Shown here in pieces: positions 24,475 to 29,011 of a stretch of DNA of 40,656 nt. The first letter of the stretch is position 1; each line of letters opens with the position of its first letter. The DNA is from Przondovirus NAN33P1: the sequence record OZ035777.1. One strand, given 5' to 3'. The translations under genes were made by a program, and so were the position numbers. Below the pieces are notes generated by a model, which searched no databases, had not been told where the DNA came from, and worked only from the letters and a program-made list of their open reading frames with translations.

Positions 24475-24495
24475 TTAGGTAGCACTATAGGGAGA
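24473..24495 (+). promoter_or_regulatory. phage RNAP promoter (phi-10-like, major capsid)
   Basis: AATTAGGTAGCACTATAGGGAGA, exact consensus; +1 G at 24490. The transcript begins with an interrupted 12-bp hairpin (GGGAGA/TCTCCC plus CCCAGC/GCTGGG, 24490-24528). Confidence 0.8.
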
Positions 24496-24608: not shown

Positions 24609-25646
24609 ATGGCTATCATGCAAGGTGGACAGCAGCTCGGTACTAACCAAGGTAAAGGTCAATCCGCAGCAGACAAGCTGGCGCTATTTCTGAAAGTATT
24701 CGGCGGTGAAGTCCTGACCGCTTTCGCTCGTACCTCTGTGACAACCAACCGTCACATGCAGCGTCAAATCAGCTCCGGTAAGTCCGCACAGTTCCCTGTG
24801 ATTGGTCGCACCAAAGCTGCTTACCTGCAACCGGGCGAGTCTCTGGATGACAAGCGTAAAGACATCAAGCACACCGAGAAGACCATTAACATTGATGGCC
24901 TGCTGACTGCGGACGTGCTGATTTACGACATCGAAGATGCGATGAACCACTATGATGTGCGCTCCGAGTACACCTCTCAGATTGGTGAATCTCTGGCGAT
25001 GGCAGCTGATGGTGCGGTACTGGCCGAGCTGGCTGGTCTGGTTAACCTCGCGGATTCCGTCAACGAGAACATCGCTGGTCTTGGCAAACCGTCCCTGCTG
25101 GAAGTTGGCGCTAAGGCTGACCTGACTGACCCTGTCAAACTGGGCCAAGCGGTTATCGCACAGCTGACCATTGCTCGTGCGGCTCTGACCAAGAACTACG
25201 TCCCGGCTAACGACCGTACGTTCTACACTACCCCGGATGTGTACTCTGCGATTCTGGCTGCTCTGATGCCTAACGCTGCGAACTATGCGGCTCTGATTGA
25301 CCCTGAGCGTGGTTCTATCCGTAACGTGATGGGCTTCGAAGTCGTTGAGGTTCCGCACCTGACCGCTGGTGGTGCTGGTGATGACCGCCCAGACGAAGGC
25401 GCAGATGCGACCAACCAGAAGCACGCCTTCCCGGCAACTGGTGGTAAAGTCAACAAAGAGAACGTTGTGGGCCTGTTCCAGCATCGTTCAGCTGTTGGTA
25501 CCGTTAAGCTGAAAGATCTGGCTCTGGAGCGTGCTCGCCGCGCTGAATATCAGGCTGACCAGATTATCGCTAAGTACGCGATGGGTCACGGCGGTCTGCG
25601 TCCTGAGTCTGCGGGTGCGCTGGTTTTCACAGCGGCCCAAGCGTAA
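24609..25646 (+). CDS. major capsid protein 10A (T7 gene 10 homolog)
   Basis: 345 aa, the same length as T7 10A and collinear (M..M.GGQQ.GTNQGKG..AA.DKLALFLKVFGGEVLTAFARTSVTT.RHM.R.ISSGKSAQFPV.GRT.AAYL.PGE.LDDKRKDIKHTEK.I.IDGLLTADVLIYDIEDAMNHYDVRSEYTSQ.GESLAMAADGAVLAE.AGL...). SD TAAGGAGA 24595-24602. Confidence 0.98.
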   Translation: MAIMQGGQQLGTNQGKGQSAADKLALFLKVFGGEVLTAFARTSVTTNRHMQRQISSGKSAQFPVIGRTKAAYLQPGESLDDKRKDIKHTEKTINIDGLLTADVLIYDIEDAMNHYDVRSEYTSQIGESLAMAADGAVLAELAGLVNLADSVNENIAGLGKPSLLEVGAKADLTDPVKLGQAVIAQLTIARAALTKNYVPANDRTFYTTPDVYSAILAALMPNAANYAALIDPERGSIRNVMGFEVVEVPHLTAGGAGDDRPDEGADATNQKHAFPATGGKVNKENVVGLFQHRSAVGTVKLKDLALERARRAEYQADQIIAKYAMGHGGLRPESAGALVFTAAQA

Positions 25647-25918
25647 ATACCTTTAGTGCTCGGACGGTAACTCCGTCTGAGTATGAGGTACAGACTGTCG
25701 CTATTGGTGGTGATTCGCTTAAGGTGGCACTTGATGGGCTGGAGAGTGTAACGGACTGGTCAACCCTTGAGGTAACTTATGGTACTTCAGGTATTGCCAG
25801 CCACACTCGCCGGACCAACACGCTGTACTTCAAAGGAATCGCTGTGGGCGAAACTCTAGTGACTGTCAGCTTTGACGGTTCCGAAAGGAAGTCCTTTAAG
25901 CTGATCGTGACTAACTAA
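24609..25918 (+). CDS. minor capsid protein 10B, predicted product of a -1 frameshift at GGTTTTC (25622-25628), with a C-terminal Ig-like extension
   Basis: Heptamer G_GTT_TTC at 10A codons 339-340, the motif I recall for the T7 gene 10 frameshift. The -1 frame is open from 25628 to TAA 25916-25918 (96 codons) across the apparent intergenic gap. The extension has a Big_2-like beta-strand pattern. Confidence 0.55.
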
Positions 25919-25930
25919 AACTAAGCCAAA

Positions 25931-25968
25931 CCCCTTGGGGACCACTCACGGTCTCTGAGGGGTTTTTT
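25931..25968 (+). terminator. T-phi-like terminator for phage RNAP (also intrinsic-terminator-like)
   Basis: AACCCCTTGGGG...CTCTGAGGGGTTTTTT: 12-bp stem (25931-25942 pairs with 25951-25962, three G-U pairs) followed by T6 (25963-25968). Resembles T7 T-phi (...AACCCCTTGGGGCCTCTAAACGGGTCTTGAGGGGTTTTTTG) at the same map position after gene 10. Confidence 0.8.
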
Positions 25969-25985
25969 CGTTAGGAGCTTACATT

Positions 25986-26564
25986 ATGAACATGCAAGAT
26001 GCTTACTTTGGGTCTGCCGCTGAGCTGGATGCTATCAACGAGATGCTCGCAGCTATCGGTGAATCCCCGGTGACCACCCTTGACGAAGATGGTAGCGCAG
26101 ACGTAGCGAACGCTCGTCGTATCCTCAACAGGATTAACCGCCAGATTCAGTCTAAAGGTTGGGCATTCAATATTAACGAGTCAGCAACATTGACCCCGGA
26201 TGCCAGCACTGGACTCATTCCGTTCCGTCCGGCCTACCTGTCAATCCTTGGTGGCCAGTACGTTAACCGTGGAGGTTGGGTGTACGATAAGTCAACCGAC
26301 ACTGACACCTTCTCAGGACCAATTACCGTGACCCTGATTACCCTTCAGGACTACGACGAGATGCCTGAGTGTTTCCGCCAATGGATTGTCACCAAGGCCA
26401 GCCGCCAGTTCAACTCTCGGTTCTTCGGAGCGGAGGACGTAGAGAACTCACTGGCACAGGAAGAGATGGAAGCACGGATGGCGTGCAATGAGTACGAGAT
26501 GGACTTCGGGCAGTACAACATGCTCGATGGGGATGCATTCGTACAGGGTCTCATCGGTCGTTAA
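25986..26564 (+). CDS. tail tubular protein A (T7 gene 11 homolog)
   Basis: 192 aa; ...AAEL.A.N..LA.IGE.PV.TL......[26 protein letters not shown]... and ...[51 protein letters not shown] are collinear with T7 gp11. Confidence 0.95.
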
Positions 26565-28988: not shown

Positions 28989-29011
28989 AATTAGGTAGCA
29001 CTATAGGGAGA
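28989..29011 (+). promoter_or_regulatory. phage RNAP promoter (phi-13-like)
   Basis: AATTAGGTAGCACTATAGGGAGA, exact consensus; +1 G at 29006; 30-nt leader to gene 13. Confidence 0.8.

What the first reader, a model, noticed from the sequence alone, without database searches (positions are those of the whole stretch)
25622..25918. Predicted -1 frameshift fuses the major capsid protein to a 96-aa Ig-like domain (capsid 10B)
Gene 10A ends ...ALVFTAAQA* at 25646. The heptamer G_GTT_TTC (25622-25628) lies in 10A codons 339-340; this is the motif and location I recall for the T7 gene 10 -1 frameshift. Translating the -1 frame by eye from 25628 gives an uninterrupted 96-codon reading frame (HSGPSVNTFSARTVTPSEYEVQTVAIGGDSLKVALDGLESVTDWSTLEVTYGTSGIASHTRRTNTLYFKGIAVGETLVTVSFDGSERKSFKLIVTN) that crosses the apparent 75-nt intergenic region and stops at TAA 25916-25918, just before the T-phi hairpin. 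The supplied track shows only its distal part as an isolated GTG-initiated 64-aa ORF (25724..25918) with no SD. The extension has the alternating beta-strand pattern of a bacterial Ig-like (Big_2-type) domain and is about twice the length of the T7 10B tail. It would put an Ig-like decoration on a fraction of capsid subunits.
Basis: partly seen in the sequence, partly recalled or inferred. Interest (0 to 1): 0.75.

Follow-up and report, generated by a model that had tools for sequence, protein, structure and literature searches.

The report
Frameshifted capsid protein with Ig-like domain
This T7-family Klebsiella phage very probably uses the same ribosomal slip as phage T7 to put an Ig-like domain on a fraction of its capsid subunits, which is an ordinary mechanism with a known precedent (phage T3) but is left unannotated in about 450 sequenced phage genomes.

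Summary
G_GTT_TTC lies at 25622-25628 in codons 339-340 of gene 10A. The -1 frame runs 96 codons from 25628 to TAA 25916-25918, just before the T-phi terminator.

- In 46 close and 17 distant relatives, GTTTTC keeps the same phase.
- The -1 frame stays open from the slip site into a homologous domain (38-95% identity).
- No start codon or Shine-Dalgarno is conserved.
- The stretch annotated as intergenic is under purifying selection only in the -1 frame (pN/pS 0.30, versus 0.97 and 1.86).
- The same slip site is experimentally proven in T7, Kvp1 and K1F.

The result is a new member of a known kind. The predicted 10B is 436 aa and 46.4 kDa.

One addition: a hairpin at 25648-25690 shows compensatory base changes and is a candidate frameshift regulator at non-canonical spacing.

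The parts
24483..24494 (+). Core of the phage RNA-polymerase promoter phi10, upstream of gene 10
   Evidence: Exact match to CACTATAGGGAG. There are 17 such sites in the window against 3 expected. The next one downstream is at 28999, so no promoter lies between 10A and the extension.
24609..25646 (+). Gene 10A, major capsid protein (345 aa, 36.6 kDa)
   Evidence: ORF list. Pfam Gp10A-like 1e-102. PDB 7y23 E 1.6e-216 and T7 10A 2xvr E 2e-166. Mass.
25607..25646 (+). Productive shift window, from the last -1-frame stop (TGA 25604-25606) to the 10A stop
   Evidence: The -1 frame is open only from 25607. GGTTTTC is the only slippery-type motif in this interval (by inspection).
25622..25628 (+). 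Slippery heptamer G_GTT_TTC (10A codons 339-340), the proposed -1 slip site
   Evidence: Phase confirmed. GGTTTTC in 44 of 46 close relatives and CGTTTTC in 2. GTTTTC in the same phase in 16 of 17 distant loci and in T7 and K1F; phase could not be scored in L047, whose contig starts 18 nt upstream of the heptamer, though GGTTTTC and the open -1 frame are present there. Proven site in T7, Kvp1 and K1F.
25628..25918 (+). 10B-specific extension in the -1 frame, 96 codons plus TAA; predicted 10B is 436 aa and 46.4 kDa
   Evidence: Translation. Open in all 47 sequences. pN/pS 0.29 in this frame. phrog_7473 3e-42. Mass.
25628..25684 (+). Linker, extension residues 1-19 (HSGPSVNTFSARTVTPSEY), predicted disordered
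   Evidence: pLDDT 47-57. Sequence and length vary between lineages, yet the frame is always open.
25685..25915 (+). Ig-like beta-sandwich domain, extension residues 20-96, with family motifs VTDW and RRTN.LYFK
25648..25690 (+). Conserved RNA hairpin (18 bp, 2-nt bulge, loop UAACU), starting 19 nt 3' of the heptamer and 2 nt 3' of the 10A stop; role unproven, candidate frameshift regulator
   Evidence: MFE z = -3.5 and -4.9. 98.9% of cells paired in 36 sequences. Two pairs carry double compensatory changes (14 and 12 sequences) with G-U intermediates. Slid-register controls give 35-52% paired.
25928..25965 (+). T-phi-type intrinsic terminator closing the gene 10 transcription unit
   Evidence: 16-bp stem followed by a T-run. 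The homologous position is annotated as a terminator in K11, T7 and PE3-1.

Best explanation
The window is a KP32-like (Przondovirus, T7-family) Klebsiella phage. Gene 10 is transcribed from phi10 to T-phi as one mRNA. Most ribosomes read 10A to its stop at 25646 and make the 36.6-kDa major capsid protein. A minority slip back one base on G_GUU_UUC (25622-25628), with tRNA-Phe re-pairing from UUC to UUU. They then continue in the -1 frame for 96 codons and make a 436-aa, 46.4-kDa 10B. 10B shares residues 1-340 with 10A and ends in a flexible linker of about 19 residues plus a 77-residue Ig-like beta-sandwich. The C-terminus of T7-type capsid protein is exposed on the outside of the shell (established knowledge; it is the basis of T7 display, and K1F g10b::gfp shows it). 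The domain would therefore be displayed on a fraction of subunits. By analogy with T3 10B, T4 Hoc and lambda gpV-C, it probably acts as a weak carbohydrate or surface adhesin. What is shown here: sequence anatomy, conservation, selection in the -1 frame, and fold. What is inferred: that slippage occurs here, its efficiency, incorporation into virions, and the binding function.
Against: I found no protein-level evidence for 10B in any KP32-like phage. PDB 7y23 contains only the 345-aa form. No canonical stimulator sits 5-9 nt downstream of the heptamer; the conserved hairpin starts 19 nt away. Synonymous invariance of GTT-TTC is not statistically exceptional: 28% of adjacent conserved codon pairs are equally invariant within the clade, and 12 of 38 conserved codons are invariant across deep lineages. 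Two relatives have CGTTTTC and one has AGTTTTC, which weakens P-site re-pairing. Pfam Big_2 is not matched. The binding function rests on analogy only.
Confidence: 0.82

Rival explanations
1. The Ig-like domain is made as a separate small protein. Translation would start at GTG 25724 (64 aa), at a non-canonical codon, or by termination-reinitiation after 10A, giving a free decoration protein.
For: Every public record examined annotates it this way, as a 'minor capsid protein' or 'hypothetical protein' of 64-87 aa. In the PE3-1 sub-lineage the 10A stop overlaps an in-frame ATG (TTAATGA), a classic coupling arrangement.
Against: The window has no ATG, GTG or TTG in this frame before 25724, and no SD there. 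The GTG is GTA in 9 of 46 relatives. Candidate starts differ between lineages. Coding-type selection and amino-acid conservation extend upstream of every candidate start, back to the slip site. A 64-aa product would lack the first beta-strand of the predicted domain, residues 20-26. A free Ig domain has no evident capsid anchor.
Confidence: 0.07
2. A frame change does join 10A to the extension, but not by tRNA slippage on GGUUUUC. It could occur at another codon within 25607-25646, or the phage RNA polymerase could slip on the T-run and produce -1 mRNAs.
For: The productive window is 13 codons long. No canonical stimulator is next to the heptamer. Three relatives have an imperfect heptamer.
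Against: GTTTTC is the only slippery-type motif in the window and the only element conserved there across all lineages. The same sequence is the MS-mapped shift site in Kvp1 and the accepted one in T7. A run of four T is shorter than the homopolymer runs usually needed for transcriptional slippage (general knowledge).
Confidence: 0.06
3. The -1 ORF is an unexpressed relic of a recombination event, kept open by chance or by constraints on the RNA.
For: One relative (L066) carries a disrupted domain. T7 10B is reported to be dispensable (general knowledge).
Against: Only 0.7% of shuffles give 96 open codons. pN/pS is 0.23-0.30 in this frame only. The domain is kept at 38-95% identity across 451 phage records in several genera. 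The model is a confident, well-packed fold.
Confidence: 0.03

Closest known systems
Phage T7 gene 10A/10B -1 programmed ribosomal frameshift (Condron, Atkins and Gesteland 1991, as cited in PMC5009743)
   Same: Identical heptamer G_GUU_UUC at the same place near the 3' end of a homologous 345-aa 10A. The -1 ORF ends just before T-phi. A minor capsid species carries a C-terminal extension.
   Different: The T7 extension is 56 aa, has no Pfam hit, and the review states it is not Ig-like. Here the extension is 96 aa and Ig-like. T7 stimulation involves a distal element in the terminator. Here a covarying hairpin lies 19 nt downstream.
Phage T3 gene 10B (Ig-like extension by -1 frameshift; Fraser et al. 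2006, as cited in PMC5009743 and PMC13320782)
   Same: An Ig-like domain is appended to a T7-family major capsid protein by -1 frameshifting near the end of gene 10.
   Different: T3 slips on C_CCA_AAG (lysyl codons), not the U-run. Its domain is a bona fide Pfam Big_2 (4e-10). There is no detectable similarity to the present domain (hhalign probability 0.1%).
Kluyvera phage Kvp1 10B and phage K1F g10b
   Same: -1 frameshift at TTTTC(A) in gene 10. It was shown by MS of a 43.6-kDa virion band in Kvp1 and by fluorescent g10b::gfp virions in K1F. K1F has the identical CTG GTT TTC context.
   Different: The K1F extension is a short T7-type tail of about 44 codons with no Ig domain; the Kvp1 extension sequence was not examined here. 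Other members of the K1F genus (PE3-1, 6925) carry the Ig-like module instead.
In-frame Ig-like decorations on phage structural proteins (lambda gpV C-terminal domain 2L04, T4 Hoc-like proteins, mycobacteriophage Douge capsid and tail-tube proteins)
   Different: Those domains are encoded in frame or as separate genes. Here access to the domain depends on a frameshift.

Membership tests
T7-type gene 10 -1 programmed frameshift (10A/10B) | Slippery G_GUU_UUC in 0-frame phase near the 3' end of a gene 10A homolog | tested here: met
   25622-25628, codons 339-340. 10A homology. Same site in T7 and K1F.
T7-type gene 10 -1 programmed frameshift (10A/10B) | -1 ORF open from the slip site past the 10A stop, conserved and under purifying selection in that frame | tested here: met
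   96 codons. Open in 47 of 47 close sequences and 17 of 17 distant loci. pN/pS 0.23-0.30 in the -1 frame only.
T7-type gene 10 -1 programmed frameshift (10A/10B) | Two capsid species in virions (major 10A, minor longer 10B) with a junction peptide | not testable with these tools
   No proteomic data for this clade were found. Shown only for T7, Kvp1 and K1F.
T7-type gene 10 -1 programmed frameshift (10A/10B) | 3' stimulatory element | tested here: inconclusive
   No structure lies within 5-9 nt. A covarying hairpin starts 19 nt downstream. Comparable hairpins in other lineages are not significant (z -0.5 to -2.0). No Rfam match.
Ig-like (E-set) beta-sandwich fold | Seven-strand beta-sandwich that superposes on solved Ig-like domains | tested here: met
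Pfam Big_2 (PF02368) | Sequence match above the gathering threshold (22.8 bits) | tested here: not met
   No hit for the window extension even at E<=10. Of 25 family members, one gives a marginal E = 0.042. Positive control: the T3 extension scores 39.9 bits.
Pfam Big_2 (PF02368) | Structural similarity to solved Big_2 domains | tested here: met
T3-type 10B | Slip at C_CCA_AAG and homology to the T3 extension | tested here: not met
   Different slip site. hhalign probability 0.1%.
Independent small capsid-decoration gene | Own start codon with ribosome-binding site, conserved among relatives | tested here: not met
   No SD. GTG is replaced by GTA in 9 of 46 loci. ORF calls are inconsistent. 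Exception: a TAATG overlap in the PE3-1 sub-lineage.

The most novel reading that the evidence does not exclude
The covarying hairpin at 25648-25690 starts 19 nt past the slip site and abuts the 10A stop codon. It may be a non-canonical, long-spacer regulator that sets the 10A:10B ratio, for example by stalling ribosomes at or near the 10A stop. The invariant GGUUUUC site would then be a fixed docking point behind which unrelated display modules (T7-type tail, this Ig-like family) are swapped by recombination, even within one genus (K1F versus PE3-1 and 6925). If true, this clade would be a cleaner system than T7 for the still unexplained stimulation of gene 10 frameshifting.
Probability: 0.2. 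Interest if true: 0.55.

Novelty: new member of a known kind. Interest (0 to 1): 0.35.

Why it matters
About 450 sequenced phage genomes carry this extension, including many Klebsiella przondoviruses proposed for therapy. That is more than carry the T7-type tail (160) or the T3-type Big_2 (104). Every record examined here annotates the extension as an orphan 'hypothetical' or 'minor capsid' ORF, or does not annotate it at all, so the real 46-kDa virion protein is missing from databases. Ig-like capsid decorations have been linked to adherence to mucus and bacterial surface glycans. A displayed Ig-like domain could therefore affect how these phages behave in mucosal or capsule-rich settings. 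It also marks a natural, tolerated display site for engineering. The domain defines a sequence family with no Pfam model. The covarying hairpin gives a concrete handle on gene 10 frameshift control.

Tried and rejected
- Pfam on the extension and on 25 family members gave nothing significant, so Big_2 membership by sequence is rejected.
- hhalign of the family against the T3 extension gave no similarity, so common origin with T3 10B is unsupported.
- PADLOC and NCBIfam scans were not run, as they were not relevant.
- Rfam on 25500-26050 at E<=1 gave no match.
- An upstream SD-like stimulator (as in dnaX) was looked for by eye at 25605-25621; nothing conserved was found.
- The outer stem of the 102-nt MFE (25632-25643 with 25716-25728) was not retained in the alignment consensus, and its AAGCG/CGCUU pairing is broken where relatives have CACTT, so it is rejected.
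- Hairpins at about +30 nt in the other Ig-type lineages exist but are not better than shuffles, so recurrence is not claimed.
- Synonymous constraint at the slip site is not significant within the clade and only suggestive across lineages, so it is not used as primary evidence.
- Literature searches for przondovirus 10B, for virion proteomics and for the paper behind PDB 7Y23 found nothing relevant.
- The first AF2 model from a shallow alignment was only moderate (pLDDT 72). It was superseded by the model from a 25-sequence alignment.

Full report
**What the window is.** The gene 10 region matches Klebsiella przondoviruses (KP32-like, Studiervirinae). The best hit is PMBT12 at 98.6% identity, and 290 records cover at least 80% of the query. 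Gene 10A (24609-25646, 345 aa) is a T7-type major capsid protein. It scores Pfam Gp10A-like at 1e-102, PDB 7y23 at E 1.6e-216 and the T7 10A structures at E 2e-166.

**Checking the observation.**
- The sequence reads CTG GTT TTC ACA GCG GCC CAA GCG TAA. G_GTT_TTC therefore occupies 25622-25628 in codons 339-340.
- A terminator hairpin with a T-run lies at 25928-25965.
- The -1 frame is closed upstream by TGA at 25604-25606. A productive shift can therefore only occur within 25607-25646, and the heptamer is the only slippery motif in that interval.
- Ninety-six open codons arise in 0.7% of shuffles.
- Small corrections: the gap to the annotated GTG is 77 nt, and the extension is 1.7 times the 56-aa T7 tail.

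**Is the extension coding, and from where?**
- Forty-six close relatives (83-96% amino-acid identity) all keep [G/C]GTTTTC and an open -1 frame of 96-97 codons. This holds even though the 10A stop shifts between two positions.
- In 25647-25723, which public records treat as intergenic, pN/pS is 0.30 in the -1 frame. It is 0.97 and 1.86 in the other two frames.
- In the distal part, pN/pS is 0.23 against 2.8 and 1.6.
- tblastn matches begin at residue 1 of the extension.

**Deeper comparison.**
- tblastn finds the domain in 451 phage records. About 300 are at 80% identity or more, and 149 are below 60% in Kayfunavirus, Enterobacter and other phages.
- Seventeen such loci from at least five lineages were examined. 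Their linkers differ in sequence and their extensions run 92-103 codons.
- All keep GTTTTC, a 10A stop 4-7 codons later, and an open -1 frame into the homologous domain. The 0-frame phase could be confirmed in 16 of them; the L047 contig starts only 18 nt upstream of the heptamer.
- One genome (L066) has a disrupted domain.
- K1F, in the same genus as several Ig-type phages, has the identical slip context but a short T7-type tail. The module behind the slip site is therefore exchangeable.

**Independent expression is unlikely in this phage.**
- The only phage promoter nearby is phi10 at 24483, and the next is at 28999.
- GTG 25724 lacks a Shine-Dalgarno, whereas genes 10, 11 and 12 have AGGAG-type sites.
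- That GTG is GTA in 9 of 46 relatives.
- Gene callers produce ORFs of 55-87 aa with different starts.
- A 64-aa product would lack the first strand of the domain.
- No homolog is found fused in frame or outside this genomic position among 5.8 and 1.8 billion proteins searched.
- One exception was noted. In the PE3-1 sub-lineage the 10A stop overlaps an in-frame ATG, so translational coupling is possible there.

**Experimental precedent for the site.**
- The Atkins et al. review describes G_GU as the X_XX part of the T7 gene 10 shift site. It also describes an unexplained distal stimulator in the terminator (PMC5009743).
- Kvp1 virions contain a 43.6-kDa 10B whose unique peptides map a -1 shift at TTTTCA (PMC2579914).
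- K1F g10b::gfp fusions give fluorescent virions (PMC6277420).
- The KP32 RefSeq record carries a note, inherited from T7, that a minor capsid protein arises by -1 frameshift, but it has no 10B CDS.
- K11 names its gene 10A only.
- The PE3-1 record mentions a slippery sequence.
- I found no paper that describes 10B or an Ig-like domain for przondoviruses.

**What the extension is.**
- Pfam gives no hit. PHROGs places it in phrog_7473, of unknown function.
- As controls, the T3 10B extension is Big_2 (4e-10) and the T7 tail matches nothing.
- The present family has no detectable similarity to the T3 domain.
- A 25-sequence alignment at 38-95% identity shows invariant VTDW and RRT..LY motifs.
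- The AlphaFold model from that alignment has pLDDT 89-93 for residues 21-96, seven strands and a disordered 19-residue linker.
  - invasin and LigB
  - several phage capsid and tail Ig decorations
- A profile search of 1.8 billion representatives adds weak but library-significant hits to Ig-repeat surface proteins.
- The domain is therefore Ig-like and nearest to the Big_2 type by fold. It is not a Pfam Big_2 member by sequence.

**Mechanism.** The best-supported model (confidence 0.82) has four parts.
- A minority of ribosomes slip -1 on G_GUU_UUC.
- They produce a 436-aa, 46.4-kDa 10B.
- 10B co-assembles with 10A.
- It displays the domain on the capsid exterior.

A role as a weak glycan or surface adhesin is inferred from T3 10B and other phage Ig domains. 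Limits of the evidence:
- There are no protein data for this clade.
- There is no canonical stimulator.
- Codon invariance at the slip site is not exceptional. Within the clade, 28% of adjacent conserved codon pairs are equally invariant.
- Across ten deep representatives the slip-site Val is GTT in 10 of 10, while the other three conserved Val positions vary. Overall, though, 12 of 38 conserved codons are invariant.

**An extra feature: a conserved hairpin.**
- An 18-bp hairpin at 25648-25690 starts 19 nt after the heptamer and 2 nt after the 10A stop.
- It folds better than shuffles, with z -3.5 and -4.9.
- In 36 distinct sequences, 98.9% of cells are paired.
- Two pairs show double compensatory changes: A-U to G-C in 14 sequences and C-G to U-A in 12, with G-U intermediates.
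- Slid-register controls fall to 35-52% paired.
- The compensatory changes alter linker residues (T/V and S/P). The RNA structure, not the peptide, therefore appears to be what is selected at those positions.
- The spacing is too long for a classical -1 stimulator.
- Similar hairpins in other lineages are not significant, and Rfam has no match.
- Its role is open. It could regulate frameshifting, pause ribosomes at the 10A stop, or stabilise the mRNA.

**Novelty and verdict.** This is a new member of a known kind. It combines the T7 slip site with a T3-like outcome, an Ig-like capsid decoration, using a domain family unrelated in sequence to the T3 domain and absent from Pfam. It is the commonest 10B type among sequenced phages: 451 records, against 160 T7-type and 104 T3-type. 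It is not annotated as a frameshift product in any record examined. The interest is moderate to low for mechanism. The practical value lies in annotation, phage engineering and phage-therapy biology.

Noticed in passing
window 25648-25690: An 18-bp RNA hairpin lies just after the 10A stop. It has two base pairs with double compensatory changes across relatives, and those changes alter linker amino acids in the -1 frame. It starts 19 nt from the slip site, which is not canonical stimulator spacing.
   Followed up: partly
L066:601-877 (IMGVR_UViG_2974604219_000001): In one Kayfunavirus-type genome the extension ORF diverges after about residue 53 into unrelated hydrophobic sequence (…TTPEWFFLLKVRMIMFYLL…). 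The Ig-like domain is disrupted or replaced. This could be natural loss, an insertion or an assembly error.
   Followed up: no
L052:436-445 (Escherichia phage PE3-1) and proteins P0126-P0128: In this sub-lineage the 10A stop overlaps an ATG in the extension frame (GGTTAATGACC). The domain might therefore also be made as a free 87-aa protein by translational coupling. The window has AAT at that codon.
   Followed up: partly
L054:1659-1809 (K1F) versus L050, L052 and L057-L065 (other Kayfunavirus): Within one genus the same CTG GTT TTC site is followed either by a T7-type non-Ig tail (K1F) or by the Ig-like module. Homology breaks at the slip site, which suggests modular exchange of 10B C-terminal cassettes by recombination.
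   Followed up: partly
phage collection: Among 50,697 phage records, 451 carry this extension family, 160 the T7-type tail and 104 the T3-type Big_2. T3-type ORFs are auto-labelled 'structural protein with Ig domain', whereas this family stays 'hypothetical' or 'unknown function'.
   Followed up: yes
L048:1098-1161 (T7, 3' of its slip site): The T7 sequence starting 5 nt after its own GGTTTTC folds into an extended irregular hairpin (72-nt window, z = -2.4). This was not examined against the published T7 stimulator mapping.
   Followed up: no
L041, L046 and L069 slip sites: Three relatives have CGTTTTC or AGTTTTC instead of GGTTTTC. The A-site UUUC slip is kept, but P-site re-pairing is lost. 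This may mean lower efficiency, or that the P-site part matters little.
   Followed up: no
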